From Candidatus Moraniibacteriota bacterium (GTDB taxonomy: Bacteria; Patescibacteriota; Minisyncoccia; Moranbacterales; UBA1568): a stretch of DNA of 64,000 nt. The translations under genes were made by a program, and so were the position numbers. The first letter of the stretch is position 1. Each line of letters opens with the position of its first letter. Below, piece by piece: positions 1 through 19,986 of this stretch. Location: the NCBI GenBank assembly GCA_023261695.1, contig JAHFON010000002.1, forward strand, positions 11,467 through 75,466. Direction: 5' to 3'. A model generated the notes under the pieces. The model was given only the letters and a program-made list of their open reading frames with translations. It did no database searches and was not told where the DNA came from.

Positions 1-6
1 TATGCA

Positions 7-468
7 ATGAGAGAAAGATTAAGCATGAAGCACGGAGTGACTTATGAAAATATTGAAGCTGCTGAGATCGAGTATTCTGATTATTTCACTACTGAGTTAC
101 GAGATGAACTTTTTTTGGCTAGTCGTTTATTAGGATTTAAGGCTGATCAGGAAAATGTTAATAGATTGATTGATATTTTAAGTAGAAAGAATGGATTTAA
201 CTCATCTGAATTAAGAACAGAACTTGGACAATATCTAGGGGAAAAGACCAGCAAATTAGGTAGAAAGAAAATCGAGGCATTCATTGAAGAGTTGTGGTGG
301 TACGGCATTTTAGGATTTAAAGAAGACAAAAAACAATTGATAAATTTCCGCTATGTCGCTGGACGTACGCCATTCGTGGTTTCTAAGATTAAAAGTTATT
401 TTCTTTTTCTTCATAGAGGTCTTTGGTGGTTTTCTCAAAAAAGAAAGATAGATAGTGACAAAACATAA
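7..468 (+). CDS. hypothetical protein; no stop codon in-frame between the window edge and the first Met, so it may be N-terminally truncated
   Basis: ORF track. No recognisable motifs. The ORF in the same frame could extend upstream of position 7. Confidence 0.3.
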   Translation: MRERLSMKHGVTYENIEAAEIEYSDYFTTELRDELFLASRLLGFKADQENVNRLIDILSRKNGFNSSELRTELGQYLGEKTSKLGRKKIEAFIEELWWYGILGFKEDKKQLINFRYVAGRTPFVVSKIKSYFLFLHRGLWWFSQKRKIDSDKT

Positions 469-472
469 ATTT

Positions 473-670
473 ATGCCATTACACAAAGATTTTCCAAAAG
501 ACCCATACGTGATACTTGACCCTATATTGAGGTGGTTTCCTGCTGCGCGAAAAAGGAGTAATACAGAAACTTCTCCCAAAGTTGCTACAAAAGGCAAGCA
601 CAAAATCGCCATAAAGGTCGTGGATATTTTCGGGAACGATACGACGAGAGTAATTGAAGTAAAAATATAA
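473..670 (+). pseudogene. remnant/duplicate of the 5' end of the Type III res gene (first ~25 codons) fused to unrelated C-terminal sequence
   Basis: Codons MPLHKDFPKDPYVILDPILRWFPA are almost identical to the N-terminus of the 897-aa Res at 2286 (MALHKDFPKDPYEILDPNIRWFPA). The nucleotide stretch around 470-545 matches 2283-2360. The ORF is only about 66 aa. Confidence 0.45.
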
Positions 671-672
671 CT

Positions 673-2112
673 ATGGAACAAGAAGATTTTGAAAAATTGA
701 TCAAGGATTTAACTGCTCTTCCTGCCGAGACAGAAACTGTTGAATTTAAGGAAAATCATTTTACCGAAGGAGAGATAGGGAAAAGGATGTCGGCACTTTC
801 TAATTCAGCAAACCTACACGATCAAAAATACGGATATCTGGTCTTTGGTATTCAAGATTCAACTCATAATATCATTGGCACCCACTTTTCTATCGATAAT
901 GAAAAGATAGGAAATGAGGCATTGGAATTCTGGTTGTCTAAGAATCTAACTCCCAAAATTGATTTTAGGGTATGTAGTAAAAGGTTTGAGGGTAAGCAGA
1001 TTGTGCTTATTATTGTTCCGCCAGCAATAAATCAACCTACTAAATTTCAGGATGTTGCTTATATAAGGGTCGGTTCAACCACTCCAAAGCTCTTGGATTA
1101 TCCTGAAAAAGAAAGAAAAATTTGGACAAACATTAATCGTAAAAGCTTCGAAAAAGGAATAGCCAAAGAAAATCTTACAGTTTCTCAAGTACTCGAATTA
1201 TTGGACTATGGAAAATACTTCTCTCTTACGAAACAGGAACTACCAACAGAAACCCAACAATTTGTGGAGAAAATGGTTCAGCATGGTTTAGTAAAAAAGA
1301 TATTTGATAATAATTATGACGTCACAAATCTAGGAGCTATCTTATTCGCAAAAGAGCTTAAGAATTTTCCTACGGTCAAAAGGAAATCCGTAAGAGTGAT
1401 TATTTACAAAGGGAATAATAGGGCCGAACGACTGAAGGAACAGGAGGGCTCTTTCGGATATGCTATCTCTTTTGAAAATCTACTCGATTATATAAATGAT
1501 AAGCTGCCACAGAACGAAGAGATTTCTAAATCTTTAAGAAAAGAAGTAAAAATGTATCCTGAAGTCGCGATTCGTGAGTTTGTTGCAAACGCGCTCATTC
1601 ACCAAGATTTGTCTATATCTGGCGCTGGTCCCATGATTGAAATATTTAAAGATCGCATTGAAATTACAAATACTGGGGAACCATTGATTGACACGGAAAG
1701 ATTTATTGATCATCCTCCAAGATCTCGCAATGAAGACATGGCCTCTTTTATGAGGCAAATTGGTGTATGCGAGGAGAGTGGAACTGGTATTGATAGAGCG
1801 CTAATAAATATGGCTTTGTATCAATTACCCGCTCCAAATTTTGAGAAGTTTGATAATTTTACGAAAATAACCCTGTATGCACACAAAGAATTAAAAGATA
1901 TGACTGCAGACGACAAAGTTCGGGCGTGTTTCCAACATTGTGTTTTGAAATATGTTGAAAATTCTAGGATGACTAACTCGACGTTAAGAGAGCGACTTGG
2001 CATAGGTGAGAAAAATTATCCAGCTGCTTCAGTGATTATCAGGGATACTATATTGAGGAGATTGATTAAGGAATCGGAGAAACCTAAGGAATATGTTCCA
2101 ATTTGGGCCTAA
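673..2112 (+). CDS. AlbA_2 (Schlafen-like, 'divergent AAA') domain protein with C-terminal HATPase_c_4 (RecG-C-terminal-like) domain; putative nucleic-acid-binding regulator/defence-associated
   Basis: The N-terminal region resembles AlbA_2. The C-terminal EFVANALIHQDLSISGAGPMIEIFKDRIEITNTGEP resembles the HATPase_c_4 family. About 480 aa is typical for this architecture. Confidence 0.6.
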   Translation: MEQEDFEKLIKDLTALPAETETVEFKENHFTEGEIGKRMSALSNSANLHDQKYGYLVFGIQDSTHNIIGTHFSIDNEKIGNEALEFWLSKNLTPKIDFRVCSKRFEGKQIVLIIVPPAINQPTKFQDVAYIRVGSTTPKLLDYPEKERKIWTNINRKSFEKGIAKENLTVSQVLELLDYGKYFSLTKQELPTETQQFVEKMVQHGLVKKIFDNNYDVTNLGAILFAKELKNFPTVKRKSVRVIIYKGNNRAERLKEQEGSFGYAISFENLLDYINDKLPQNEEISKSLRKEVKMYPEVAIREFVANALIHQDLSISGAGPMIEIFKDRIEITNTGEPLIDTERFIDHPPRSRNEDMASFMRQIGVCEESGTGIDRALINMALYQLPAPNFEKFDNFTKITLYAHKELKDMTADDKVRACFQHCVLKYVENSRMTNSTLRERLGIGEKNYPAASVIIRDTILRRLIKESEKPKEYVPIWA

Positions 2113-2285
2113 ATCATGTAGTAATTAAATGACGTATTTCTCTAAAACAGCAAAAAATCCTTTATTTAAGCGGTTAATTAATGTAGCGGGTATGTAGTAA
2201 AATTATGATACTTTATTTACTAATGACGAAAGTAAATAACCATGCCAGCCGCTCGCTATAAGCATTTTTAGACACTTTATTTACT

Positions 2286-4979
2286 ATGGCATTACACAAA
2301 GATTTTCCCAAGGACCCATACGAAATACTTGACCCGAACATTCGGTGGTTTCCTGCTGACGAAGATTTGCGGGAAAAAGGGGCTATACAAAAACTCCTCC
2401 CTCCTCTTGTGGCTGGTTTGCGGGAAAAAGTGAAAGAATGGCGAGACAAAAACTACGAGGGAGCAAGCGATACTTCTAAATCACTTCTAAATTGGTGGTT
2501 TAAAGAGGAACATATTTTGTATGACCAGCACGGAACATCTTCTCATTTCAGATATTATTTTGCGCAAAGAGAAGCTCTGGAAACAGTCGTTTGGCTCTAT
2601 GAAGTTGCAAAAGTAAAGGACAAATATGATCTCATTCGTTACAACACGACTGGCGTGCTAAGCCCGCAAATGTTTACCGAGGAATGGCTTCGCTTTGTAA
2701 TAAAGATGGCGACAGGCGCAGGCAAGACTAAGGTGATGAGCTTAATAATCGCATGGGCGTATTTTCATAAAAAATATGAGGAAGATTCTAATTTGGCAAA
2801 GAATTTTCTTTTGATAACTCCGAATGTCATTGTTTTTGAAAGAATCAAAAATGACTTTGAGGGGTTAAAAATCTTTTTTAGCGATCCTGTTTTGCCGGAC
2901 AATGGGTATCGCGGACAAAACTGGCAGGATGATTTTCAAATGACTTTGCATTTGCAGGATGATTTGCGCAATGTCTCCGACACAGGAAATATATTTTTGA
3001 CCAATATCCACAGAGTTTTTGAGGGTGATGTACGAGACGCGAGCGCGGAAGATGAGGACACTTCGCGATATTTCTTGGGCGATAAGCCAGTTACGAAAAC
3101 AAGCGATTCTACTGTTGATCTCGGTATGATTGTGAGAGACATTGATGAATTGATTGTTATCAACGATGAAGCTCATCACTTGCACGATGACAAATCGGCT
3201 TGGGTTAAATCTATCACAGACATAGACAATAGATTGAAACAGAAAGGAACTGGACTATCTTTGCAAATTGATCTAACCGCTACTCCAAAAAAGAATGACG
3301 GCTCTATTTTTGTGCAGACAATTTCTGATTATCCGCTTGTTGAAGCAATACATCAGAGAGTTGTAAAAAATCCAGTTGTGCCAGACGCGGCGAGCCGGGG
3401 GAAACTGAAAGAAAATCAGAGCACTCTATTTAGCGAAAAATACAGGGATTATATAAATCTTGGCATTGAGGAATGGCAGAAAACATACGATGTACTGAAG
3501 CCGATGGGTAAAAAATCCATTCTTTTCATAATGACGGACGATACAAAAAACTGCGATGAAGTAGCGGAATATATTGAAACAAGTTTTAAAAATCTGAAAG
3601 GCGCGGTTTTGACCATTCACACGAATAAAAGCGGAGAAATTTCTGAAAACGTGTCTGGTAAAAGCAAAGAAGAATTGGATTTGCTTAGAAAACAAGCAAA
3701 CGAAATTGATAGTTGGGAAAGCCCGTTTAAGGTGATCATTTCTGTGATGATGCTCAAGGAGGGTTGGGATGTAAAAAATGTAACAACGATTGTGGGATTG
3801 CGTCCTTATGCCGCCGATTCAAAAATTCTTCCCGAACAAACTCTTGGACGAGGGCTCCGCAGAATGTTTTTTGGTAGAGATGATGTTGAAGAATATGTGA
3901 GTGTCGTTGGAACTTCCGCTTTTATGGACTTTGTTGAGTCAATCAAGGGAGAGGGCGTTATTCTTGAGAAAAAAGCGATGGGAACAGGGGCTAAACCGAT
4001 TGCTCCGATGGTTATTGAAGTTGATAAGGATAATCCGAAAAAGGACATTGAGAAACTTGATATTGAGATTCCGGTGATGTCCCCAAGGATTCAAAGAGAA
4101 TATAAAAATCTTGCAGAATTGGATGTTTCTAAATTTGGAAATAAAAAAGTTAAGGTAAAAACTTTCTCCGAGGAGGAAAAGAGAGAAATTGTTTTTAAGG
4201 ATGTCGTTGATGAAAAAACTCACCACACAACAATACTTTCGGGCGATATTGAGCCCGATTATCAAAGTGTTGTCGGCTTTTTTGCGCAAGCAATAATGCG
4301 GGAACTGCGACTGTTCGGTTGCTATGACATTTTGTTCGGCAAAGTAAGAGAATTTGTGCAGAGTAATATGTTTGATAGCAGAGTGGACTTGTCAGACCTC
4401 AATATTTTAAGAAACTTGTCGGAAGTTGAGTATATTCGGCTTATAAAAGATTCTTTCAAGAAAGCCATTAATGATCTTACGGTCGAAGATAAAGGAGATA
4501 CAGAGATAAAAAATTATATAAAAATAAGCGAAGCGCGTCCTTTTGTCGTCAATGATAAGTCGTACTTGATACCTAAAAAATCTGTTTTCAATAAGATTGT
4601 AGGAGATAGTGATTTTGAGTTGGTATTTTCTGACTTTCTTGAGAATTGTGAGGATGTAATTTCTTTTGCAAAAAACTTTCAAAATAAGGAAGCGGGTGCG
4701 CTTAGAATTGAATATAAAAATTCAGAGGGATTTATAGCTACCTATCACCCAGACTTTTTTGTTAAGAAAGATGAAAAAACCGTTTACATTATCGAGACAA
4801 AGGGGCGCGAAGAAGATGACGATAAATTAAAATTTGAAAGACTGCAAAAGTGGTGTGAGGACGTGAACGATCGACAAAGCAGAGTCATCTACAAAGCCCT
4901 ATATATAAAACAGGAAGAATGGGAGAAGGACAAGCTCAAAAACTTTGATGAAGTTATCAGAGTATTTAGCAAAAAATAA
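2286..4979 (+). CDS. res: Type III restriction endonuclease Res subunit (SF2 DEAH helicase + C-terminal PD-(D/E)xK nuclease)
   Basis: Walker A-like AGKT and the DEAH box VINDEAHHL are present. A C-terminal PD...E.K motif (HPDFFV...YIIETKG) is present. The N-terminal LDPNIRWFP-type leader is typical of ResIII proteins. Length 897 aa. Confidence 0.7.
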   Translation: MALHKDFPKDPYEILDPNIRWFPADEDLREKGAIQKLLPPLVAGLREKVKEWRDKNYEGASDTSKSLLNWWFKEEHILYDQHGTSSHFRYYFAQREALETVVWLYEVAKVKDKYDLIRYNTTGVLSPQMFTEEWLRFVIKMATGAGKTKVMSLIIAWAYFHKKYEEDSNLAKNFLLITPNVIVFERIKNDFEGLKIFFSDPVLPDNGYRGQNWQDDFQMTLHLQDDLRNVSDTGNIFLTNIHRVFEGDVRDASAEDEDTSRYFLGDKPVTKTSDSTVDLGMIVRDIDELIVINDEAHHLHDDKSAWVKSITDIDNRLKQKGTGLSLQIDLTATPKKNDGSIFVQTISDYPLVEAIHQRVVKNPVVPDAASRGKLKENQSTLFSEKYRDYINLGIEEWQKTYDVLKPMGKKSILFIMTDDTKNCDEVAEYIETSFKNLKGAVLTIHTNKSGEISENVSGKSKEELDLLRKQANEIDSWESPFKVIISVMMLKEGWDVKNVTTIVGLRPYAADSKILPEQTLGRGLRRMFFGRDDVEEYVSVVGTSAFMDFVESIKGEGVILEKKAMGTGAKPIAPMVIEVDKDNPKKDIEKLDIEIPVMSPRIQREYKNLAELDVSKFGNKKVKVKTFSEEEKREIVFKDVVDEKTHHTTILSGDIEPDYQSVVGFFAQAIMRELRLFGCYDILFGKVREFVQSNMFDSRVDLSDLNILRNLSEVEYIRLIKDSFKKAINDLTVEDKGDTEIKNYIKISEARPFVVNDKSYLIPKKSVFNKIVGDSDFELVFSDFLENCEDVISFAKNFQNKEAGALRIEYKNSEGFIATYHPDFFVKKDEKTVYIIETKGREEDDDKLKFERLQKWCEDVNDRQSRVIYKALYIKQEEWEKDKLKNFDEVIRVFSKK

Positions 4980-5267
4980 CTCATGCAAATGAAGTCAAAA
5001 TAACCCCACAGCAAACACGCCGTGTTGCAACGGGGCAGACAAACTCTTGAATGGAGAAAAGAAACTGCCATACAACACATTTTCAAAAAGTGCTAAAATA
5101 TAGACAGTAGCATTTCTATATTATTAGTTATATTAATTTATTTACATGAAATTCATATTCGTATCGCGGCCGTTTTCAAAAGAAAGTAAAAGGGAAGCGA
5201 TCAGGGAGCTTCTGGAAAATACCGTTCCCGATCGTGGCAAATAAAAAAAAGCATTTAACTAAAAGCT

Positions 5268-5579
5268 ATGCAACAAAATATTATCACTTTGAAAGACGCC
5301 GTGGAATATCAAAAAGGCGCGGTGGTCAGCAAAGAAATCCTAAAAACGTCCAATGGCACGGTCACTATTTTTGCTTTTGATGAGGGGCAGGGATTAAGCG
5401 AACACACGGCGCCGTTTAGCGTGCTGGTTCAGATTTTGGACGGCCAAGCGCAAATCAATATTGAAAAAACGCCGCATATTGTGGCAGATGGTCAGATGAT
5501 TGAATTGCCTGCCAATAAAACGCATTCCCTTCAGGCGTTGGAGAGGTTTAAGATGCTTTTGATAATGTTAAAGAAGTAA
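5268..5579 (+). CDS. cupin domain protein
   Basis: A 103-aa small beta-barrel-like sequence with His residues in the cupin_2 pattern (GLSEHTAP...HSLQA). Confidence 0.5.
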   Translation: MQQNIITLKDAVEYQKGAVVSKEILKTSNGTVTIFAFDEGQGLSEHTAPFSVLVQILDGQAQINIEKTPHIVADGQMIELPANKTHSLQALERFKMLLIMLKK

Positions 5580-5594
5580 AGCGGTAAAAAATAT

Positions 5595-6776
5595 ATGATT
5601 TCAGAAGTTATTATTTCTGTCATCGCGGTGGTTTTGGCGTTAGGCGTAACAATTTTTTTGTTAAAAGGCGTTGTTTCGCGGTATTTGCAAGTATTTTTGC
5701 AAAAGATGCTGGAGGAAAACTTCAGTATTGCCGAACAAAGGAACAAAGAGCTTTTTCGGGAGGAGCGGGAGAGACTGTCCGAGCAATACCGCTCGGAAAA
5801 AGAGTTGCTTCAGGAAAAATTGAAAGCAGGCGAACAATATATTGAACACAAAAAAGACAGCATCAAAGAACTGGTGGAAAAAATTCATAATGAACTGTCG
5901 GAAAGCCAAAAGAAACTGGAGCATACGGAGAAAGAGAGAATCGGGGAATTCAGCACGCTGAAAGCGGTTTTGAACGAATACAAAATTATCACCGGCGGTT
6001 TGAAAGAATCCACCGACCACCTCAAAAACATCTTGTCCAATAATCAATTGCGCGGAAAGTATGGCGAAGAAGTGGCGGAAAATTTGCTCAAATCAGTAGG
6101 TTTTGTGAAAGGGCAAAATTATGTGGCGAACGAAAGCCAAGATTCTGTCGCTTCCCGTCCGGACTTCACCATTTTTCTGCCGGACGGCACCAAGGTGAAC
6201 GTGGACGCGAAATTTCCTTTGCAGGCCTTGATCAAATATCAGGAGAGCGAAGACAAACAGGAAAAGGAGAGATATTTGCGGGAGTTTACTGCCGATGTCA
6301 AACAAAAAATCAAACAAGTGACTACGCGGGACTACATAAATCCGGAAGAGAAGACCGTGGACTTTGTGATCTTGTTCGTGCCGAACGAAATGATTTTCAG
6401 TTTTATTTATGATCGCTTGAACGAAGTGTGGGATGAAGCGATGAAAAAGAAAGTGATTATGGCGGGGCCGTTTAGTTTTACGGCGATGCTCCGAATGATA
6501 TTTCAGTCGTATAAAAACTTTAAGTATCAGGAAAATCTGTATGATATTATCAAGTTGATTAAAATTTTTGAGCAGGAGTACGAAAAGTTTAACGCGGCGC
6601 TGGATATTCTCGGGACGAGAATGCAGTCGGCGGCCAACCAGTATCAGGTGGTTTCCGTTACCAGAACCAAAAAGTTGTCAGGCGTAGTGGAAAAAATCAA
6701 AGGGGAAAATGTTTTGTTTGAAAATCCGGAGGCCGGTCCCGCGATTGAAGCTCCGGAATTAGCTGAAGAAAAGTAA
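5595..6776 (+). CDS. rmuC: DNA recombination protein RmuC
   Basis: N-terminal TM segment, long coiled-coil, then the conserved RmuC core (GKYGEEVAENLL...RPDFTIFLPDGTKVNVDAKFPLQA). Confidence 0.8.
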   Translation: MISEVIISVIAVVLALGVTIFLLKGVVSRYLQVFLQKMLEENFSIAEQRNKELFREERERLSEQYRSEKELLQEKLKAGEQYIEHKKDSIKELVEKIHNELSESQKKLEHTEKERIGEFSTLKAVLNEYKIITGGLKESTDHLKNILSNNQLRGKYGEEVAENLLKSVGFVKGQNYVANESQDSVASRPDFTIFLPDGTKVNVDAKFPLQALIKYQESEDKQEKERYLREFTADVKQKIKQVTTRDYINPEEKTVDFVILFVPNEMIFSFIYDRLNEVWDEAMKKKVIMAGPFSFTAMLRMIFQSYKNFKYQENLYDIIKLIKIFEQEYEKFNAALDILGTRMQSAANQYQVVSVTRTKKLSGVVEKIKGENVLFENPEAGPAIEAPELAEEK

Positions 6777-6788
6777 GCGCGCAAAATT

Positions 6789-7019
6789 ATGAAAAAAGAA
6801 GGACAAACATCGGAGCAATTGAGTCTCGGTATCAATGGGGCTAATGGGCAAACTGAAATAGACTCGTCTTTGGCGGAAGGCGAAGCACTAATGAGTTCTG
6901 ATGAAAAGGAATCCGGTGTTCCCAGAATAATTACAAAGAAGAAACTAGAAGAGGAGCGTGAGAGGGCGCGCGCTGTTAGAGACGATTCTCTTAGGCGGGT
7001 TAAAGAAATACTTAAGTGA
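6789..7019 (+). CDS. hypothetical small acidic protein
   Basis: ORF followed immediately by a bidirectional terminator. The RBS is weak. Confidence 0.25.
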   Translation: MKKEGQTSEQLSLGINGANGQTEIDSSLAEGEALMSSDEKESGVPRIITKKKLEEERERARAVRDDSLRRVKEILK

Positions 7020-7026
7020 AAAAGCG

Positions 7027-7064
7027 AAAGCCCCTCTTGAACCGATGTTCGCGAGGGGCTTTGA
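7027..7064. terminator. bidirectional rho-independent terminator hairpin (agcccctc...gaggggct)
   Basis: An 8-bp GC-rich inverted repeat between convergent ORFs, flanked by T/A runs. Confidence 0.5.
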
Positions 7065-7073
7065 ATGTGTAAC

Positions 7074-7328
7074 TTAATATTGCAAGAGTTGGCGGAACTC
7101 AGCTTCTAGTTCCGCCCACTCCTCACTTGTGAGGAGTGTGGCCTCATCGATGTCGGGCGGCGTACTTTCAGACTTCACGCTCCTAAAGCTTAACTGGTGA
7201 AGTTTTTTCCAAAAAGTTCTGTGAGCAGGGGATCTTTCCGTGAATTGCCAGTGGTCCATTTCTGGCAATCCGGTCTCCTTGAATATCAAATTTCTAAAGT
7301 CTCGTACCGTCCCTATCAATTTTCTCAC
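7074..7328 (-). CDS. hypothetical protein
   Basis: ORF track only. Confidence 0.3.
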   Translation of the reverse strand: MRKLIGTVRDFRNLIFKETGLPEMDHWQFTERSPAHRTFWKKLHQLSFRSVKSESTPPDIDEATLLTSEEWAELEAEFRQLLQY

Positions 7329-7458
7329 CTCCTTTCCCTTGTCTATTTTGACAAGAAGACCTGATAGTTTAAATTTAAATGTACAAAACCCATCACATAT
7401 TTATGTGATGTTTCAGTATAGCGTGTTGCCATAAAAAATCAAGTGCTGATGAGAAAAG

Positions 7459-7541
7459 TGCTGCGGGAGAGACTCGAACTCTCACGCCCTTACGGACACT
7501 TGGTCCTAAACCAAGCGCGTATACCATTCCGCCACCGCAGC
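7459..7541 (-). tRNA. tRNA-Leu (anticodon TAG), long variable arm
   Basis: Hand-folded. Acceptor GCTGCGG/CCGCAGC, anticodon stem CTTGG/CCAAG with loop TTTAGGA, long variable arm, T-arm GAGAGTTCGAGTCTCTC. No encoded CCA. Confidence 0.8.
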
Positions 7542-7544
7542 AGT

Positions 7545-7856
7545 CTAAATTATCTTTGCTTTTTCTCCAAAAATACCGATAAGCCGTGAAACTTCTTCTT
7601 TTAACGGGCCTCCGTTTTCGTATTCTCCGTGGTGTCGCGTCGTTTCGCCGTAAGTGTGTTTTTTTTGATCCAGATGCAAATTGAGAGTGAGCGTAAGTTT
7701 ATCCAGTTTGGCGTAGCAGTGGAAGCGGGGATAGCCGGCGCTCGCCAGCGCGCGGATAAAACTCATCTCCGCATTTTCTTCGCGCTGAAAAACATATCCC
7801 GCTTTACGAAGCAGGGATACGGGATTTTCAGTGATGGGGTTGATAATAATTTTCAT
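7545..7856 (-). CDS. hypothetical protein (103 aa) sandwiched between two tRNA genes
   Basis: ORF track. No motif recognised. Confidence 0.35.
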   Translation of the reverse strand: MKIIINPITENPVSLLRKAGYVFQREENAEMSFIRALASAGYPRFHCYAKLDKLTLTLNLHLDQKKHTYGETTRHHGEYENGGPLKEEVSRLIGIFGEKAKII

Positions 7857-7857
7857 G

Positions 7858-7928
7858 TCGGAGTGCCGGGAATTGAACCCGGATTACACGAACCCGAATC
7901 GTGCGTAATGCCGTTATACCACACTCCG
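7858..7928 (-). tRNA. tRNA-Pro (anticodon CGG)
   Basis: Hand-folded. Acceptor CGGAGTG/CACTCCG, anticodon stem CACGA/TCGTG with loop TTCGGGT (G37), T-arm CCGGGTTCAATTCCCGG. Confidence 0.7.
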
Positions 7929-7966
7929 AAAATAACTCTAAATTCTTACCACTTTGAATTTCACAT

Positions 7967-9490
7967 TTACTCCACCCAATGTCTTTTTTTAATTTTATCA
8001 TTTTCCGCCACTTTTTTTTCTTGGATTTTTTCTCTGGCTAGCTCGCGCAAAGTTTGCAAGTCGCTTTCCTGAAGAATTTGAGCGCGTTTTAATAATATCT
8101 CTTTCGTGTTTAATTCAGGATTCTCAATAACTTCCGCGAGCAATACTTCCACGATCGCGCCGATCTTGGGTCCGGCCGGAATGCGAAGCTCATTCATCAG
8201 ATCGTGCCCATTGACGGCGAGCATTTTGGCGGAAATCGGATCGTGAGAAACCTTCTCAATCATATATTCCAAATGACGCAGTTTGTAGGGTTTGGCTTTG
8301 GGCACGCCGGAACCCAGTCTATCACCAATGCGCACCGCCATCAAATCCTGCATATTTTCCAGTCCGACGCGTTTGATGAGACGGCGCACGGAAGCCTCGG
8401 TCACTTCGCCGACATTGTAATAAAAAAGATGGTTGTCCACGAGAAGCGCGGATTTTCTGATGATTTCTTTGGGAAAGCGCAAACGCGTGAGCATCTGCTC
8501 CGTAAGGCGCGCGCCGATATGATCGTGGCTGTAAAAAGTGGAATAATATCCTTCGCCGCGTTTGGCGCGGGGCTTGCCGACATCGTGAAGCAAAGCGGCC
8601 AATCTTGTTTCCAGTTTGGGCGACGGGCAAGTGGCGAGCGCGCGCAAATTATGTTCCCAGACCGTATAGATATGATGCAAATTTTGGGTTACGCCGATAC
8701 CTTCTCTCAATTCTGGAAGTACAAAGCGAAGCAAGCCGGTTTTCTCCAGCATAGCAATGCCTTCGCTCGGGCTGTCGGAGAGAATAATTTTAGAAAGTTC
8801 GTCGCGGATGCGTTCGGGAGAGACTGCCTTTAGATGTTCGGAAAGTTTGCTTATGGCCACTTCGGTGTTTTCTTCGATGCGCCACTGGTGCGCCAGTTTG
8901 GTTTTTTTTGTCTCGCTTGTAACTGTAGGCGGGGTGCGATCGCGCAACTTAGCGAAGAGGCGCACGGCGCGCATCAGACGCAGAGCGTCCTCGTTGAAAC
9001 GTTCCTCCGGCTCACCCACCGTGCGAATAATTTTTTTTTGCAAATCCTTCGCTCCGTCGTAAGGATCAATCACTTCCCATTTCTCGTCTGCGGTTGGACC
9101 ATACGCTATGGCGTTGATGGTAAAATCGCGGCGCGCCAGATCCTCCTTTAGAGAAAGCGTGAAATTGACTTCGCTGGGACGGCGTTTGTCTTTATATTGC
9201 CCTTCCGTGCGGTAAGTGGTAACTTCCACGATGTCATATTCATAGTCAGGCATCGTTTCCAGAAAGCGCGGCACTTTGACGCCGACGGTGCCGAACGTAT
9301 TTTCATAGAAACTTTCCGGAAAAATTTTCAGAACCTGATCCGGCGTGGCGTTGGTGGTGATGTCCCAATCTTTGGGCGCGTGTTCCAAAAGGAGATCGCG
9401 TACGCACCCGCCCACCACAAACGCCTCAAAACCGGCCTTTCGCAAGGCCTGAATAACATTCAAAATTGGTTCTGGAATTTTTCTTATCAT
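7967..9490 (-). CDS. cca: CCA-adding tRNA nucleotidyltransferase with HD domain
   Basis: GGCVRD head motif of the poly(A) polymerase/CCA family. HD motif (LHDVGK). 507 aa. Confidence 0.85.
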   Translation of the reverse strand: MIRKIPEPILNVIQALRKAGFEAFVVGGCVRDLLLEHAPKDWDITTNATPDQVLKIFPESFYENTFGTVGVKVPRFLETMPDYEYDIVEVTTYRTEGQYKDKRRPSEVNFTLSLKEDLARRDFTINAIAYGPTADEKWEVIDPYDGAKDLQKKIIRTVGEPEERFNEDALRLMRAVRLFAKLRDRTPPTVTSETKKTKLAHQWRIEENTEVAISKLSEHLKAVSPERIRDELSKIILSDSPSEGIAMLEKTGLLRFVLPELREGIGVTQNLHHIYTVWEHNLRALATCPSPKLETRLAALLHDVGKPRAKRGEGYYSTFYSHDHIGARLTEQMLTRLRFPKEIIRKSALLVDNHLFYYNVGEVTEASVRRLIKRVGLENMQDLMAVRIGDRLGSGVPKAKPYKLRHLEYMIEKVSHDPISAKMLAVNGHDLMNELRIPAGPKIGAIVEVLLAEVIENPELNTKEILLKRAQILQESDLQTLRELAREKIQEKKVAENDKIKKRHWVE

Positions 9491-9654
9491 AAAACTATCG
9501 TAGCAAAAGAAAGCTGACTTGACGAGACTGGGTAAATAAAGAAATTGTAGTAATACGACGCGATTTGTTTTCGAGGCAAAGGGCGGCTATTTGAACACAC
9601 GGCACGAATTGGCGGTTGTTATTTGAAGCCGTATTGATTTTGTGAAAATTAAGA

Positions 9655-10737
9655 ATGACGCGACGTATTTTTTTTGCTATGATGAACGTAAAAAATAGTA
9701 TGTATGAAAGTGGTCCTGATAATATACATCGCCAGCAGAATGCGAAAAAGGAAGTAGAGCAGAAGCGTTATTCTCGAGAGTCTGTGGATGAGGCGTGGCG
9801 GAAATTGCATTTTGAGGTGAACGGTAGGCAAGTTGAGTTGTATGGCGTTTTACACGTGCCTGAAACGCTTGAAGTTGACGAATATCGCGAAACACTGAAA
9901 CAAGCGATCGCGCGCGCTTCGCTTGTTGTGATTGAGTCTATGCCAACCGCCTCCGGAATGCATTCGGAGAGATTTATAAAATTTATACTGGAAATGGCGG
10001 AAAAATCTAGCGAGAAAATATCACGGGAGCCAATTGTGAATTTTTTTGAGACAGAAAAGTCTGGCCGATTTTTTCGCCAAATTGAAAATTTTGCTGCGAA
10101 TCTGCACAAAAAAGCGGCTATGGTAGATCCGTGGATTCAGAACATTGAACATCCAGTCGTCGTGTATGATTTGTTGCGCAGAGACTCCGATGTTCTTACC
10201 ACGAAAACAGTACTTGGAATGTTGGGGACAATAGCTTTTGCTTTTTATAATCTCACCGGCAATAAAGCGAATATAAAAAATGAACAAACGGATAACAGCC
10301 CCGGTTTGTCGGGGAAAAGCGGTTTGACGCGGAGACAATTTTTAAAAGGTTTGTCCGGGGCCGTTATGGGCGGCGGTTGGTTGTCTTCTATGGCCTCTGT
10401 GATAGACAGCAGTTCTGGGATTAGTGTGCGGGGTGGTCGCGCGGACAATCCGCTGGGTCCTTTTTTATACAATCTTCTAGATTATAGAGATGTGACTGTT
10501 GCAAAGGGACTGGATATACTAACGAAAAAAGAGTTAGGTGAAGGTCCGATCGTGATGATTTACGGCGCTGGTCACGCGTCGGCGATACGCCATTACGCTG
10601 AAGCTTCTTTGGAACGCGAGGCAAAATATACCACCTACGCGCCTTATCGCTCGGTGGATCCGCCGCAGCTACACACTTATGAGTTTGACGCGTCCAAAAA
10701 AGAATGGGTTACGGTTGAAATGGCGGATATCTTATAG
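9655..10737 (+). CDS. TraB/GumN family protein
   Basis: N-terminal VELYGVLHV...LVVIESMP and C-terminal IVMIYGAGHASAIRHY match the TraB-family GxxH signatures. The true start may be an internal Met. There is an internal RRQFLKG twin-arginine-like segment. Confidence 0.45.
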   Translation: MTRRIFFAMMNVKNSMYESGPDNIHRQQNAKKEVEQKRYSRESVDEAWRKLHFEVNGRQVELYGVLHVPETLEVDEYRETLKQAIARASLVVIESMPTASGMHSERFIKFILEMAEKSSEKISREPIVNFFETEKSGRFFRQIENFAANLHKKAAMVDPWIQNIEHPVVVYDLLRRDSDVLTTKTVLGMLGTIAFAFYNLTGNKANIKNEQTDNSPGLSGKSGLTRRQFLKGLSGAVMGGGWLSSMASVIDSSSGISVRGGRADNPLGPFLYNLLDYRDVTVAKGLDILTKKELGEGPIVMIYGAGHASAIRHYAEASLEREAKYTTYAPYRSVDPPQLHTYEFDASKKEWVTVEMADIL

Positions 10738-10774
10738 TGGGTTATAAGAAAACGCATCAAAAATTTTTAGAAAG

Positions 10775-11611
10775 CTAGAACTTAGTTGGCTTATCATATT
10801 TTCCTTCCAAGCCTTTCCACGTAATTTCAAATACTTCACGCAAAGCCTTGGCTAATTTGGGGGATTCAATGATGAGTGATTGAACGCTCTCAATGAGCGC
10901 GATGCGTACGAACTGGTCGTCGCATGATTCAATAGATACTTTAGCGCTATACATATTTTCAGGGAGAAATTTACCCGTAATTTCTGTTGTTTCTGGCAAG
11001 AGCCACTTCGCGTATGGCTTTAGTGTCGGCGTGTCCACCGTCAATCCCATCACATGGGTATGATGGCGTTCTTTGTATTCGTTCCATTCATAAAAAACTT
11101 CGTTTACTTCGGATGAAGCATCTTCAGGGTTGGCAAAAAATCCAACTATATTTTTTTCATGCAATTCCTTTTTTTTATAATCATACGCCTGTCGCAAGCC
11201 TTCAATACCTTCAAAGTACAGAACACTTGCCTTTTCAGAGGTTTCTTTTTGGAGAGACTTCAATTCCGGTAAAACACTTTTTGTTTTAAGCAGTTTCGCT
11301 TCTTGCGCTTCCAAAACAGCTTCCGGTGAACGGGCGATGTAGCGTTTTGGCTCTTCGCCGGGAACGTGTACGATTAGGCCCTTTACCACCAATTCTTCGG
11401 CAATCACATAGGCCGTCGGGCGTTTCAATCCCGCTTTTTGCGCGATCCGGTACGGGGTGGCCGGTCCAAGCTGAAGTAAAGCCAAATATATCTTTGCCTC
11501 TTTTTCACTTAATCCGAGATTTTTCAATGGTTCAATGAGATGTTGCATAGGGATGATTATGTCCAGTATACACCTATTTGTAATATTAGTCAATAATTTT
11601 GACAAATACAA
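10775..11611 (-). CDS. TrmB family transcriptional regulator
   Basis: N-terminal winged-HTH (LGLSEKEAKIYLALLQLGPATPYRIAQKAGLKRPTAYVIAEELVVKGLI) followed by a TrmB C-terminal-like region. The start may be the internal Met at 11548. Confidence 0.6.
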   Translation of the reverse strand: MYLSKLLTNITNRCILDIIIPMQHLIEPLKNLGLSEKEAKIYLALLQLGPATPYRIAQKAGLKRPTAYVIAEELVVKGLIVHVPGEEPKRYIARSPEAVLEAQEAKLLKTKSVLPELKSLQKETSEKASVLYFEGIEGLRQAYDYKKKELHEKNIVGFFANPEDASSEVNEVFYEWNEYKERHHTHVMGLTVDTPTLKPYAKWLLPETTEITGKFLPENMYSAKVSIESCDDQFVRIALIESVQSLIIESPKLAKALREVFEITWKGLEGKYDKPTKF

Positions 11612-11929
11612 CTGTCATATTGTCGAGCACTCTTTATATTAAGCCACAAAGTAGCTATATTTAGGGATATTTTTACCATAAAAATAGACTATATTATTGA
11701 CCTTTTGACGATTATTTGCTATACTGCTCTTTCAATGATGAGGACAGCAACACTCGCTTTGAAAAGTTCTTTAATTTCCATATTAAAGTTTGCGCGTTCG
11801 CTAAATCCGTATCGGCGAAATGAGAGAAGGCCTATGAGTTCGGGCGCTCTCGGCTATGCCGTGTTCCGAGACATCTCGGAATGTTTCCGAAATAACCAAA
11901 AAGTTGTTTCGGATAGTCAGAGAACTTAA

Positions 11930-12900
11930 TCTTGGACAGGGGACGTAAAATACCACAACCCCAGCGTATTGGTAACGGTCATACCAATTTCCAAGAGACG
12001 CACAAAAAATAAGTAACGAGGTGTGGTTTGTAAATAAAATGGAAAGTTACTTGCAACCATAATCGTAACCGAGCAGGAAAACCGTTTTGATGCGGCATAG
12101 GAGGGCGCAACAAAAACGGCGAGTACGTAAGCTCTCGGTGAATAACCGAAAGGAGGCCGATACTGAAAAGTGTCGCCTTTGTCACCTACAACGCAGTAGG
12201 TGAAGACCTTTCGAGCGGTTGGCACGGCTCAGACGACCGAATGGCCCTCGTGTTGCAAAACACGAAGGGCGATGGGGGTCTCAATAGAGGCCACATCGGG
12301 ACCGAGCGACGTCGTGAAGAGATCGGCATTCTCTGGGAGAAACTCCAAGAGTCACTACCCTATCTCGATCACGTCGTGGTCTACGTCGGAGCGTCAGGGT
12401 CGGAGCGAGTCATTGCACTGGCAGCACAGTTGCCTGCGTCAAAGGTCACGTTCGTCGGCTGTGATTGCGGGCTTCCTAACAAGGAGGCTCTCATCCAAGC
12501 GGCTGACTTGGACGATGCGCGGCGGATACTCTGCGAGTGCGGTGGTCGCCGAACCATGAAGTTGCTTTTTCAGAACTTCATGGAAACCGGTGAGCTCCTT
12601 CTGGCTGTGCCAGCCTAGCTCTCGCTCACCAAGAATGGTGCTCTCTGCGGAAGAGGGTTCTGGCAGTAGGCAGTAATCGGTCCTGCCAGAAGCGCTGTCA
12701 AAGGGGAAGCATTCCGCAAGTGCCCGTGCAAACCCAAGCAGGGTTCGCCCTGAGATGTCGCCACCGAAAAGCGCGGCATCGCGAAAGACTAATGCACGGC
12801 TCTACCGTCACTCTAGAACACGAGTCAAAACTGTTTGGTTGCGAGGTAAGCTGGTGGGAATAACTCGCAACCTCTTCCGCAAGGAAGACGGCAAGGTCAA
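11930..12900. other. anomalous GC-rich (~55-58%) hairpin-rich block without convincing coding frame; candidate large structured RNA/leader or horizontally acquired fragment
   Basis: Composition differs sharply from the ~40% GC flanks. Several perfect 8-10 bp hairpins: ggccctcgtg..cacgaagggc, tctggcag..ctgccaga, gttgcgag..ctcgcaac. Only short mutually overlapping ORFs in several frames, none with a Shine-Dalgarno. Confidence 0.3.
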
Positions 12901-13038
12901 CGCCGATAATGACTACCACTTTGGAGAAAAAGAATGAATCTATTTTTTTTCTCCTCTCAATTGAGATTTCAATTATGAAATTGAAGTTTCATAGAGAAAA
13001 AGTTCTTTTCAAACCTTTTCAAACAAGGAGGAATACAA

Positions 13039-13190
13039 TGAGGGAATTGAGCGGTGCAGAAATGATCGCGCGAGGACTCGGTATGCTGTTAGCGGAAAGT
13101 GTAGGAAATCAAGAGGCAATAGAGATCTGCAATGAAATGATGATAATGTTGTTCAAACTGGAAAAAACTGCAAAAAACCATCAAGGATAG
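13039..13190 (+). CDS. small protein (~50 aa), first gene of a three-gene small-protein operon
   Basis: Strong RBS aaggaggaatacaATG. Preceded by an AT-rich region with the palindrome atgaaattgaagtttcat. Confidence 0.45.
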
Positions 13191-13201
13191 GAGGAAAAAT
13201 C

Positions 13202-13510
13202 ATGGCAAAGTTGAATTTCTATCAGCTAACAGATCGTCAATCCGATGAAAGTAAGACTGTTCTTCGTGAAGGCGACAAGATGATTTTTTACCGTGAAAGC
13301 GGACTTGTTCGCTTTTCCCGAGATGGTAGGCCGCTTTACGGGTGTATGGGTGATGATAAATGTATCATTGGAAATAATAAAAGCTTTATGATTAGCGTAC
13401 TTCATCATTTTGGGATAGGCGTGGATCTGGTTGCTGAGAAAAATGATTTGATAATATATAAGCTCCGACAGTTGAGTAGTTTTTCAACGAGGTCTGCGCG
13501 AAAAGCGTGA
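13202..13510 (+). CDS. hypothetical small protein (102 aa)
   Basis: RBS aggaggaaaaatcATG. 11-nt spacing from the upstream gene. Confidence 0.5.
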   Translation: MAKLNFYQLTDRQSDESKTVLREGDKMIFYRESGLVRFSRDGRPLYGCMGDDKCIIGNNKSFMISVLHHFGIGVDLVAEKNDLIIYKLRQLSSFSTRSARKA

Positions 13511-13525
13511 GGGAGGAAGGTAAAA

Positions 13526-13828
13526 ATGGTACAGTTCTTGAGATTTGTGACTGATCTTGTAGAGGTTTGGTTGGAAGTGATGATGACAATAGTCACGACC
13601 TATCCGTGGCTTGCGTGGACTCTCGTTGTATTGGTGGTTCTTGGGATTGTTTTGGAGCTGTATTGGCAGATATTCGCCAGTCCTGAGGAGCGCCGCCGCG
13701 ATGAAGAATGCCGGCGCTATGTCAAAGAACATCGCCGTAAAGAGATGTCCGAGAGTTTGCGGCGTGAAGTGGATAGGCGGAGAGTAGTTTACTCTTCGTT
13801 ATTAAAGCCGTCGAGTAGGTGGCGATAA
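13526..13828 (+). CDS. hypothetical small membrane-anchored protein (100 aa) with highly charged C-terminal tail
   Basis: RBS gggaggaaggtaaaaATG. One hydrophobic helix (LAWTLVVLVVLGIVLELYW), then an Arg/Glu-rich tail. Confidence 0.5.
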   Translation: MVQFLRFVTDLVEVWLEVMMTIVTTYPWLAWTLVVLVVLGIVLELYWQIFASPEERRRDEECRRYVKEHRRKEMSESLRREVDRRRVVYSSLLKPSSRWR

Positions 13829-13844
13829 AGAAGGGGAAAGTTTC

Positions 13845-13889
13845 TGGGGACGAGAGAAGTAATAGCTTCACTCTCGTCCCCATTTTTAT
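13845..13889 (+). terminator. rho-independent terminator (tggggacgagag...ctctcgtcccca + TTTTT)
   Basis: A 12-bp perfect stem followed by a T-run, directly after the small-protein operon. Confidence 0.65.
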
Positions 13890-14030
13890 GATCTAATTTT
13901 AGTAACGAGTAACTTCCTAATCAAGTTTTCTATAAGTAATTCTCTGGATTGTTTTTATATCATCTTGTGGAGCCTAGATTCCCGCCTTCGCGGGAATGAC
14001 AAAGAAACAAATTTAATGTCATGTTTATAA

Positions 14031-15809: not shown

Positions 15810-15872
15810 AAAATATACAGTTTAGTTACGCGTTGATGATAAATATAAGTAAATAAGTTTGAAATTTTTGCG

Positions 15873-16391: not shown

Positions 16392-16521
16392 AGGCGGCGT
16401 TTATGGGACTTCTCGTTCACGTTATCACCATTTTGGCTTAATGTAAACTCTGGCTGTCGCAAAGCGTATCAATGGACGAGCGGGTTAAACTCAAGTATAA
16501 TCCACATAAAGAGCGAAAAAT

Positions 16522-17352: not shown

Positions 17353-17364
17353 TTTATCTATTTT

Positions 17365-18069: not shown

Positions 18070-18129
18070 CGTATGCAGAATACTATTTCCCGATGTATCT
18101 TAAAGAAAGAGCGCTTAAGATAATCACCT

Positions 18130-19947: not shown

Positions 19948-19986
19948 TCACTAGCCACTTATGTTTTAGCAATTGAAAATTTATCT

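What the first reader, a model, noticed from the sequence alone, without database searches (positions are those of the whole stretch)
673..4979. Orphan Type III Res with no adjacent Mod, paired with a Schlafen/AlbA_2-HATPase_c_4 protein
Type III R-M systems need Mod for both protection and Res activity, and mod normally sits immediately 5' of res. Here the 5' neighbour is an AlbA_2 + HATPase_c_4 protein, a family recurrently found in defence islands. The 153-aa ORF at 7-468 shows no methyltransferase motifs (no DPPY, no FxGxG). Either the mod gene lies further upstream, or Res is inactive, or this is a non-canonical pairing. The Res protein itself appears intact, with DEAH and the C-terminal PD..E.K motif.
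Basis: partly seen in the sequence, partly recalled or inferred. Interest (0 to 1): 0.55.

Follow-up and report, generated by a model that had tools for sequence, protein, structure and literature searches.

The report
Type III restriction operon carrying defence cargo
The restriction gene is not an orphan: its methylase partner lies just upstream of the window, and the gap between the two genes is a slot where related candidate-phyla bacteria (Patescibacteria) swap anti-phage genes, here holding two of them plus visible recombination scars.

Summary
The "orphan Res" reading is wrong. Two metagenome contigs that overlap the window (one identical over 3,547 nt) show the operon: Fic, RhuM, mod (707 aa), a 503-aa Sll1717-family P-loop ATPase (window ORF 7-468 is its C-terminus), a 71-aa scar ORF, the AlbA_2/HATPase_c_4 protein, then res.

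In 74 species-level relatives of this highly conserved Patescibacteria Type III system, mod and res abut in 29 (one more has an 80-nt gap). In 44 they are separated by same-strand cargo from 49 families. These include Schlafen-GHKL, OLD-like, DUF3800, NYN, PIN, ClpP-like and Fic proteins.

The 71-aa ORF is a copy of the res 5' end fused, at a ~10-nt microhomology, to a copy of the mod 3' end. It marks where a mod-Sll1717-res locus and a mod-Schlafen-res locus were joined; both single-cargo forms exist elsewhere.

The 479-aa protein is a stand-alone "Schlatpase" with a winged helix. It has an intact Ex4ExK nuclease motif and is a predicted ATP-dependent tRNase. Close homologues are also embedded in Type I R-M operons.

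Unexpectedly, the gene carries a conserved non-coding 3' element with three ATGTAGT repeats at fixed positions.

Verdict: a complete R-M system and a new variant of known defence-gene embedding.

The parts
1..468 (+). Cargo 1. The 3' part (codons 349-503 plus stop) of a 503-aa Sll1717-family P-loop ATPase. Its Walker A (GRKGSGKT) and LIFLDD motifs lie upstream of the window. Its start codon overlaps the mod stop codon (ATGA) in L001/L002.
   Evidence: contigs L001/L002; NF047389, E 5.5e-47, above cutoff; motifs. The same family sits alone between mod and res in L083 and L085.
455..670 (+). Recombination scar, readable as a 71-aa ORF (65 aa from ATG 474). Positions ~472-576 copy res nt 1-~110 (85% identity, with an 11-nt deletion). 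This is joined at the microhomology ACT(T/C)CTCC to positions ~565-670, a copy of the last ~100 nt of mod (86% to the locus's own mod, 88% to the L004/L005 mod), including its stop codon at 668-670.
   Evidence: repeat D1, 472-545 vs 2285-2358; three-way alignment A1; blastn of the two halves; residues 37-69 match the last 33 positions of the MTase_III profile; Mod C-terminus ...KIAIKVVDIFGNDTTQVIEVKI*.
673..2112 (+). Cargo 2. A 479-aa stand-alone Schlafen-GHKL ('Schlatpase') protein with a C-terminal winged helix. It has the nuclease motif E19-x4-E24-x-K26 and the GHKL N-box E302/N306. It is predicted to be an ATP-dependent tRNA endonuclease.
   Evidence: Pfam; motif residues invariant in 31 homologues; AF2 model: Slfn domain pLDDT ~90; Foldseek hits to DIP2311 1.7e-16, SLFN11 2e-4, SLFN13 4e-4; C-terminal H-H-H-beta-beta topology. 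Literature.
2116..2198 (+). Non-coding 3' element that travels with this Schlatpase subfamily. ATGTAGT sits at 2116-2122, ATGTAGC at 2181-2187 and ATGTAGT at 2192-2198, i.e. +4, +69 and +80 from the stop codon. The last two form a 7+4+7 tandem box.
   Evidence: The three copies are the invariant columns in 10 genomic contexts with different downstream genes (res, hsdS, hsdMS, AbiU2, PLD). Positions are fixed at +4..6, +69..71, +80..82. Background frequency is 0.14 per kb; the tandem box is unique in the 64-kb window; no conserved RNA fold.
2207..2287 (+). Relic of the 3' end of a different (type C) Schlatpase cassette. Positions 2210-2239 read TLFTNDESK*. It keeps that cassette's repeat architecture: M1 at 2207-2223, inverted M' at 2231-2239, M2 at 2271-2287 (64-nt spacing). 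M2 abuts and overlaps the res ATG.
   Evidence: The C-termini of the L020/L059/L101/L104 proteins read ..LFTNDKGK*..LFTSDKSK*..LFALDESK*. Window 2212-2284 matches L059 9924-9995 at 55/74. The same 0/+20 inverted/+63-64 direct geometry occurs in L078 with a different motif.
2286..4979 (+). res: an 897-aa Type III restriction subunit (SF2 helicase plus C-terminal PD-ExK nuclease), intact.
   Evidence: ResIII; RE_endonuc weak; REase_III, E 3.7e-23; BPTD_3080 family, E 5.5e-81, below cutoff; motifs; 87-96% identical homologues across Patescibacteria.

Best explanation
This is a complete, canonical Type III restriction-modification operon. Its mod-res junction is used as a cargo slot.

Shown:
- mod lies upstream, outside the window.
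- Two unrelated cargo genes lie between mod and res on the same strand: a Sll1717-family P-loop ATPase and a Schlafen-GHKL-winged-helix protein.
- They are separated by a res-5'/mod-3' fusion scar.
- In relatives, the same junction is either empty or filled with other defence-type genes.

Inferred:
- The locus arose when a mod-Sll1717-res locus and a mod-Schlatpase-res locus were joined.
- One crossover was homologous, inside the very conserved mod/res flanks. The other was illegitimate, at a ~10-nt microhomology. This is homology-facilitated illegitimate recombination. It stacked the two cassettes and left the scar.
- A still older type-C Schlatpase cassette left only its 3' end in front of res.

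Mechanism, inferred from the families:
- Mod methylates one strand of an asymmetric site. The Mod-Res complex cuts unmethylated DNA after ATP-dependent communication between sites.
- The co-transcribed cargo proteins act as second-line, abortive-infection-type effectors.
- The Schlatpase would tetramerise on ATP binding and cleave tRNAs through its Ex4ExK site.
- The trigger of the Schlatpase is unknown, and so is any coupling between it and the R-M enzyme.
For: Operon order and identity with the window.

Mod and Res identities and motifs: (Mod is homologous to EcoP15I Mod 4zcf_A, E 5.8e-15).

Slot census:
- 74 loci: 29 abutting, one with an 80-nt gap, 44 occupied by 49 cargo families. All cargo ORFs but one run in the same orientation as mod and res.
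- The five closest Res relatives (93-96% aa identity) between them show four different cargo sets and the empty state.

Cargo annotations.
- OLD/GajA/AriA-like in 5 loci.
- Schlatpase in 7 of the 74 censused loci, plus L010 and L101 (9 in all).
- DUF3800 in 5 loci.
- Also NYN, PIN_12, ClpP-like, Fic and DUF4145.

Scar anatomy.

Both predicted single-cargo parents exist:
- mod-Sll1717-res in L083/L085.
- mod-Schlatpase-res in L005 (83% aa identity).

Other stacked loci also carry res-5' remnants between cassettes: L017 and L086.

Schlatpase features.

Literature:
- Prokaryotic Schlafens are anti-phage tRNases with an Ex4(E/D)xK site (PMC13056530).
- The GHKL domain drives ATP-dependent tetramerisation that builds the nuclease (bioRxiv 10.64898/2026.05.29.728809).
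Against: - The window itself stops 1 kb short of mod. The link rests on contigs from other assemblies, although one is 100% identical over 3.5 kb.
- No expression, methylation or cleavage data exist. Promoter and terminator scans gave no more than chance.
- The Enterobacterales Schlafen-HisKinase fusions tested in E. coli were not among the two systems that gave protection against the phage panel. So defence by this architecture is unproven.
- The direction and order of the recombination events cannot be resolved. The scar halves are about equally diverged (85-89%) from all relatives.
Confidence: 0.8

Rival explanations
1. R-M guardian model (like PrrC or PARIS). The embedded Schlatpase, and perhaps the Sll1717 ATPase, is kept silent while the Mod-Res enzyme is functional. 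It fires tRNA cleavage when a phage anti-restriction factor disables the enzyme.
For: - A predicted tRNase lies inside an R-M operon, like prrC in EcoprrI.
- Five of 8 sampled close homologues (70-81% identity) abut or lie between Type I hsd genes (four embedded; in L098 the contig ends right after the gene). The same subfamily is also found in Type III slots.
- Three Schlatpase subfamilies only 20-27% identical to each other occupy the same Type III slot.
- OLD/AriA-like ATPases share the slot.
Against: - The same subfamily is embedded in non-homologous R-M types and also occurs away from any R-M (L089, L097, L099, L102, L104). This argues against a specific protein-protein lock.
- 30 of 74 loci have no cargo.
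- Embedded systems tested elsewhere can act independently of their host R-M: TgvAB protected E. coli when expressed on its own, though less strongly than the whole cluster.
Confidence: 0.15
2. Regulator model. The winged helix of the Schlatpase binds the ATGTAGT repeats that travel with its gene. In this way it controls, or reports on, expression of the next gene (res here; hsdS or hsdMS elsewhere). This would be a controller-protein-like delay of restriction. It could hold alongside a nuclease role.
For: - Three ATGTAGT copies sit at fixed positions after the stop codon in 10 contexts, and they are the only invariant non-coding columns.
- The 7+4+7 tandem layout and the 65-nt (about 6 helical turns) spacing fit same-face binding by winged-helix dimers or tetramers.
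- Other subfamilies carry different motifs with the same 63-65-nt geometry.
- The model shows a C-terminal winged helix.
- There is no conserved RNA fold.
Against: - There are no binding data.
- The sites lie downstream of the regulator's own gene.
- The L061 motif also occurs in L012 behind a protease cargo.
- The element persists where the next gene is unrelated to R-M (L089, L097).
- The promoter scan was uninformative.
Confidence: 0.2
3. Pure hitch-hiking. The mod-res junction is only a permissive recombination hotspot between two very conserved, horizontally mobile genes. The cargo gains co-transfer and expression but has no functional relation to restriction, and need not be defensive.
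For: - Cargo is uncorrelated with Res similarity.
- Many cargo ORFs have no Pfam or PADLOC hit.
- The scars show illegitimate recombination.
- A 263-nt recombination patch in res separates two otherwise identical contigs.
Against: - The annotated cargo is overwhelmingly of defence or abortive-infection type: OLD, Schlafen, PIN, NYN, HEPN-like, Fic, ClpP-like.
- No transposase or integrase was seen among the 69 cargo proteins.
Confidence: 0.3
4. Orphan or decaying Res (the title reading), or a chimeric metagenome assembly.
For: No mod is visible inside the window. Res-5' and mod-3' fragments are present.
Against: - Full-length mod and res have all motifs.
- The same structure appears in two independent ENA assemblies and in the window.
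- The scar copies are only 85-86% identical to the intact genes, and the junction is a ~10-nt microhomology. A k=141 de Bruijn assembler has no shared k-mer at which to mis-join.
Confidence: 0.03

Closest known systems
Type III restriction-modification systems (EcoP15I / EcoP1I type)
   Same: - Gene order is mod then res, on one strand.
- Mod is a beta-class N6_N4 methyltransferase (DPPF before FxGxG) and is homologous to EcoP15I Mod.
- Res combines SF2 helicase motifs with a C-terminal PD-ExK nuclease.
   Different: - 3.3 kb of foreign genes lie between mod and res.
- Res belongs to a distant family (BPTD_3080-like; no phmmer hit to any solved Res).
- The family is almost confined to Patescibacteria and is unusually conserved (87-96% among the best 120 protein hits; 68-96% over the 80 loci).
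Defence genes embedded inside multi-gene defence systems ('guilt by embedding': Hma, BREX, DISARM, Type I R-M; TgvAB in Vibrio cholerae; DarTG2 in EPEC)
   Same: - Co-oriented, highly variable cargo sits between the subunits of a host system.
- The cargo classes match (ABC-ATPase/TOPRIM, PIN, HEPN-like).
- The N-terminus of the Schlatpase hits PADLOC candidate PDC-S50, and the flanking RhuM and Fic hit PDC-S05/S23 and PDC-S04.
   Different: - The host is a Type III system, which the text I could read does not treat.
- There is a single precise slot (mod stop to res start).
- Recombination scars show how cassettes stack.
- Cassettes carry their own conserved 3' repeat elements.
PrrC in the EcoprrI Type Ic locus, and PARIS (R-M guardians)
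   Same: A (predicted) tRNA nuclease encoded inside an R-M operon. OLD/AriA-like ATPases occupy the same slot in relatives.
   Different: - The nuclease fold is unrelated (Schlafen vs PrrC or TOPRIM).
- There is no evidence of inhibition by, or sensing of, the R-M enzyme.
- The same gene also occurs outside R-M loci.
Prokaryotic Schlafens / 'Schlatpase' supradomain (RorSlfn5, EcoSlfn7, SLFN-pAgo RzAgo)
   Same: SLFN_AlbA_2 domain with Ex4ExK plus a PF13749 GHKL ATPase with the E...N box. This is the commonest prokaryotic Schlafen architecture.
   Different: - It is a stand-alone protein with only a winged helix as a possible sensor.
- No trigger is known.
- This architecture has no demonstrated defence phenotype.
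- It carries fixed ATGTAGT repeats 3' of the gene.
Integron gene cassettes
   Same: Promoterless ORFs with a conserved element at the 3' end only. They are stacked in one orientation at a fixed site, with rapid turnover.
   Different: - No integrase is nearby.
- The repeats are direct rather than a hairpin-forming attC (folding z-score +1.4).
- The junctions are remnants of mod and res, pointing to homologous plus illegitimate recombination.

Membership tests
Type III R-M system | mod and res genes in one co-oriented unit, mod first | tested here: met
   L001/L002 show mod, then cargo, then res on one strand. In 29 relatives mod and res abut (0-6 nt). Here they are 3,325 nt apart.
Type III R-M system | Mod is a beta-class amino-methyltransferase (motif IV DPPY/F before motif I FxGxG, with the target-recognition domain between) | tested here: met
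   DPPF at residue 123, FCGSGT at 350. PADLOC MTase_III, E 3.9e-113. Homologous to EcoP15I Mod.
Type III R-M system | Res has SF2 helicase motifs plus a C-terminal PD-(D/E)xK endonuclease | tested here: met
   GAGKT 144, DEAH 294, TATP 331, QTLGRG 518, PD..ExK 822-839. Pfam ResIII E 3.7e-17. RE_endonuc only E 0.0013, below cutoff.
Type III R-M system | Hemimethylation of an asymmetric site; ATP-dependent cleavage needing two inversely oriented unmethylated sites | not testable with these tools
   Needs a methylome and biochemistry.
Prokaryotic Schlafen nuclease / Schlatpase | SLFN_AlbA_2 domain with catalytic Ex4(E/D)xK | tested here: met
   Pfam E 1.2e-19. E19, E24 and K26 are invariant in 31 homologues, and the E..EFK motif is conserved in the three cargo subfamilies. 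Fold matches SLFN11 and SLFN13.
Prokaryotic Schlafen nuclease / Schlatpase | GHKL (PF13749) ATPase with the Mg/ATP-binding E...N box | tested here: met
   HATPase_c_4 E 2.5e-19. E302 and N306 are invariant. The structure model of this domain is poor (pLDDT 30-50).
Prokaryotic Schlafen nuclease / Schlatpase | Trigger-dependent tRNA cleavage and phage protection | not testable with these tools
   The HisKinase-type fusions tested in E. coli were not among the two protective systems (PMC13056530).
Embedded defence cassette (guilt by embedding) | Lies between genes of a multi-gene defence system, in the same orientation, with different cargo in homologous host systems | tested here: met
   44 of 74 loci are occupied by 49 families, and all cargo ORFs but one are co-oriented.
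R-M guardian (PrrC-like) | Nuclease held inactive by the R-M enzyme and released when it is inhibited | not testable with these tools
   Only the genomic embedding is shown. Occurrence outside R-M loci argues against an obligatory link.
Integron cassette | attC hairpin recombination site and an IntI integrase with attI | tested here: not met
   The repeats are direct and there is no conserved fold. No integrase was seen in the ORFs and called genes of the flanks of L001/L002 that I inspected or in the first 12 kb of the window.

The most novel reading that the evidence does not exclude
Stand-alone Schlafen-GHKL-winged-helix proteins are the most abundant and least understood prokaryotic Schlafen architecture. 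In this reading they are self-contained mobile cassettes that carry their own cognate DNA repeats. Here the repeats are ATGTAGT at +4, +69 and +80 after the stop codon. Other subfamilies carry different motifs with the same 63-65-nt geometry.

The protein would bind these sites through its winged helix. That would couple its tRNase activity, and/or expression of the downstream R-M subunit, to the state of the host R-M operon. It would be a Schlafen-based R-M guardian that plugs into Type I and Type III systems alike.
Probability: 0.15. Interest if true: 0.75.

Novelty: new variant of a known kind. Interest (0 to 1): 0.48.

Why it matters
- It removes a false 'orphan restriction enzyme' call.
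- It shows that Type III R-M operons, like Type I, BREX, DISARM and Hma systems, can host embedded defence genes. Here this happens at one precise junction, in a system spread across the Patescibacteria. That makes the junction a ready-made place to look for new defence genes in a phylum with few known ones; many cargo ORFs have no annotation.
- The res-5'/mod-3' scars give rare direct evidence of how such cassettes are stacked and exchanged.
- The fixed repeats that travel with the Schlafen gene give a concrete, testable handle on what the commonest bacterial Schlafen architecture recognises.

Tried and rejected
- RNA switch in the spacer 2207-2287, with GTAAATAA pairing alternately with two TTATTTAC copies. 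I first raised this idea. I then found that the segment is the 3' end of a type-C Schlatpase cassette, including its last 10 codons. The geometry is real, but a switch is unproven.
- Structured RNA or attC-like hairpin in the ATGTAGT element. RNAalifold gave essentially no structure (-0.45 kcal/mol, no covariation). The single-sequence z-score was +1.37.
- Promoter and terminator scans of the operon gave counts within chance.
- Solved-structure sequence searches found nothing for Res or for the Sll1717 ATPase. There is no literature on 'Sll1717'.
- The exact tandem box was not found in viral contigs.
- Rfam and tRNA scans of the window found only six tRNAs.
- Testing whether the scar halves derive from a particular lineage: identities of 85-89% to all relatives are too similar over ~100 nt to decide.
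- The supplementary tables of the Schlafen paper were not available.

Full report
**1.

The ORFs are real and correctly typed.
- Window 673-2112 encodes a 479-aa protein with SLFN_AlbA_2 and HATPase_c_4 domains (both E about 1e-19).
- Window 2286-4979 encodes an 897-aa ResIII protein. It has Walker A, DEAH and a C-terminal PD...ExK motif.
- No methyltransferase gene lies within the window.

**2. The missing mod**

A look-up of the 479-aa protein returned two metagenome contigs.
- L002 is identical to window 1-3547.
- L001 differs from the window only by 26 substitutions clustered in res.
- L001 and L002 are identical to each other across RhuM, mod and the next gene.

The gene order is GIY-YIG, Fic, RhuM, mod (707 aa), a 503-aa gene whose start overlaps the mod stop, a short ORF, the AlbA_2 gene, then res.

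Mod is a Type III methyltransferase:
- PADLOC MTase_III, E 3.9e-113.
- DPPF at residue 123 precedes FCGSGT at 350.
- It is homologous to EcoP15I Mod.

The 503-aa protein is a Sll1717-family P-loop ATPase (NCBIfam, E 5.5e-47). Window ORF 7-468 is its C-terminus. So Res is not an orphan: mod ends 1,041 nt before the window starts, and 3,325 nt separate it from res.

**3. The junction is a cargo slot**

Res is 87-96% identical among the best 120 protein hits, which come from many Patescibacteria. A genome-collection scan gave 80 loci, with Res 68-96% identical. Counting the window's own locus once, 74 loci have both the mod end and the res start.
- In 29, mod and res abut (0-6 nt). One has an 80-nt gap.
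- In 44 they are separated by 0.4-3.3 kb of cargo, with all ORFs but one in the same orientation. The window's 3,325 nt is the largest gap; the relatives reach 2.3 kb. The cargo falls into 49 sequence families.

Annotated cargo is of the defence or abortive-infection type:
- OLD/GajA/AriA-like ATPase-TOPRIM (5 loci)
- Schlafen-GHKL
- DUF3800 (5 loci)
- NYN
- PIN_12
- ClpP/SDH proteases
- DUF4145/HEPN-like
- Bro-N
- Fic
- a STAND-like ATPase

Slot content is uncorrelated with Res similarity. The five closest Res relatives (93-96% identity) show four different cargo sets and the empty state.

This is the known 'embedding' phenomenon, so far described for Hma, BREX, DISARM and Type I R-M. Here the host is a Type III system.

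**4. The scar**

The 71-aa ORF at 455-670 is not a gene family.
- Positions 472-576 copy the first ~110 nt of res (85% identity, with an 11-nt deletion).
- Positions 565-670 copy the last ~100 nt of mod, including its stop codon.
- The two meet at the shared sequence ACT(T/C)CTCC.
- The C-terminal half hits the last 33 positions of the MTase_III profile.
- The AlbA_2 start codon follows the copied mod stop by 2 nt, as at the mod-to-cargo junction in L005.

Both predicted single-cargo parents exist: mod-Sll1717-res (L083, L085) and mod-Schlatpase-res (L005, 83% identity).

Other multi-cargo loci carry res-5' remnants between cassettes: L017 (MALHKDFPKDPYAILDPNIRWFPA...) and L086 (MALHKNFPKDK).

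I infer homology-facilitated illegitimate recombination. One crossover lies in the conserved flank and the other at a microhomology.

An assembly artefact is unlikely. The copies are only ~85% identical to the intact genes, and the same structure appears in independent assemblies.

**5. The 479-aa protein**

It has the catalytic E19-x4-E24-x-K26 motif and the GHKL E302/N306 box. These residues are invariant in 31 homologues.
- The AlphaFold model is confident for the Schlafen domain (pLDDT ~90) and poor for the GHKL domain.
- It shows a C-terminal three-helix plus beta-hairpin winged helix.
- Foldseek finds DIP2311 (E 1.7e-16), SLFN11 and SLFN13.

Published work bears on mechanism.
- Prokaryotic Schlafens are anti-phage tRNases (PMC13056530).
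- The Schlafen-GHKL 'Schlatpase' unit assembles an active nuclease by ATP-driven tetramerisation.
- Fusions to a histidine-kinase-like domain, with or without an HTH, are the commonest Schlafen architectures. The ones tested were not among the protective systems.

Three Schlatpase subfamilies, only 20-27% identical to each other, occupy this Type III slot in 9 loci.

Of eight close homologues of the window protein, four are embedded in Type I operons (hsdR|X|hsdMS, hsdM|X|hsdS). A fifth abuts hsdR at a contig end. Three are outside any R-M operon.

So the gene is a promiscuous R-M-embedded cassette, not a Type III-specific partner.

**6. An unexpected feature**

Aligning the 3' flank of the gene from 10 contexts shows that the only invariant non-coding columns are three ATGTAGT copies. 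They lie at +4..6, +69..71 and +80..82 from the stop codon, whatever the next gene is.
- In the window these are 2116-2122, 2181-2187 and 2192-2198.
- The tandem box is unique in the 64-kb window.
- There is no conserved RNA fold.

The rest of the spacer (2207-2287) is the relic 3' end of a type-C Schlatpase cassette. It keeps that cassette's last ten codons (TLFTNDESK*) and its repeat set: M1, inverted M' at +20, and M2 at +64 abutting the res ATG.

The same geometry recurs elsewhere.
- It occurs with a different motif in L078.
- It occurs in L104, outside any R-M locus.
- 64-65-nt direct repeats occur in L061 and L012.
- Direct repeats of at least 10 nt spaced 62-66 nt were found before res in 6 of 81 loci, against 40 of 3,000 control windows.

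The function of these repeats is unknown. Operator sites for the protein's own winged helix are my leading guess.

**7. Verdict**

This is a complete Type III R-M operon with two stacked defence cassettes, and a new variant of a known phenomenon. Interest is moderate. It comes from:
- the Type III slot in Patescibacteria;
- the scars that expose the stacking mechanism;
- the cassette-borne repeats.

Noticed in passing
window 2116-2198; also L005 4846-4938, L089/L091/L093/L095/L097/L099/L100 just after the Schlatpase stop codon: A conserved non-coding element travels with the Schlatpase gene. It has three ATGTAGT copies at +4..6, +69..71 and +80..82 from the stop codon. The last two form a 7+4+7 tandem box. 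The element is independent of the downstream gene.
   Followed up: partly
window 2207-2287; L020, L059, L101, L104, L078, L061, L012 (the 130 nt before the next gene): Other Schlatpase subfamilies carry different motifs with the same geometry: two direct copies 63-65 nt apart, and in type C an inverted copy at +20. L078 keeps the geometry with an unrelated motif. L012 has the L061 motif behind a protease cargo. The function is unexplained.
   Followed up: partly
window 3592-3854 (inside res): All 26 differences between the window and contig L001 fall in this 263-nt patch (22 synonymous, 4 not). The other 3.6 kb are identical. This looks like a recent gene-conversion tract between co-existing res alleles, or a strain-mixture assembly effect.
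   Followed up: partly
L001 4721-6155 (upstream of the window); L095 3081-3338, L100 3092-4180, L099 3657-4715: Fic and RhuM genes sit directly upstream of mod. Fic or RhuM genes recur directly upstream of Type I operons carrying the same Schlatpase (L095, L100). In L099 a Fic gene lies in the same gene cluster as the Schlatpase. They hit PADLOC candidates PDC-S04/SoFic and PDC-S05/S23.
   Followed up: no
L003-L082 record titles: Res is 68-96% identical across many Patescibacteria classes. It also occurs in MAGs labelled Gammaproteobacteria, Bdellovibrionales, Chitinophagaceae, Nitrospirae and Omnitrophica. This means either wide horizontal transfer or mis-binned or mis-labelled contigs.
   Followed up: no
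window 1-5000 versus 5000-20000: The R-M/cargo region has 35-40% G+C, against 42-52% in the flanking housekeeping genes. This is consistent with a horizontally acquired island. A cupin gene (5268-5579) and RmuC (5595-6776) follow res, and tRNA-Leu and tRNA-Pro lie at 7458-7928.
   Followed up: no
L101 8213-9322: In a Nomurabacteria locus (mod | type-C Schlatpase | res), a PIN_12 gene follows res directly. PIN_12 is a cargo family inside the slot of L025, so cargo-type genes also attach downstream of res.
   Followed up: no
L001 8285-9796 (window 1-468 is its 3' end): The Sll1717-family ATPase has no PADLOC hit and no solved relative, and I found no literature on it. It gives only a weak match to the NCBIfam model 'DS41_1_antiphage' (E 1e-5, far below cutoff). 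In L083, L085, L086 and here it always sits immediately after mod with overlapping or abutting codons.
   Followed up: partly
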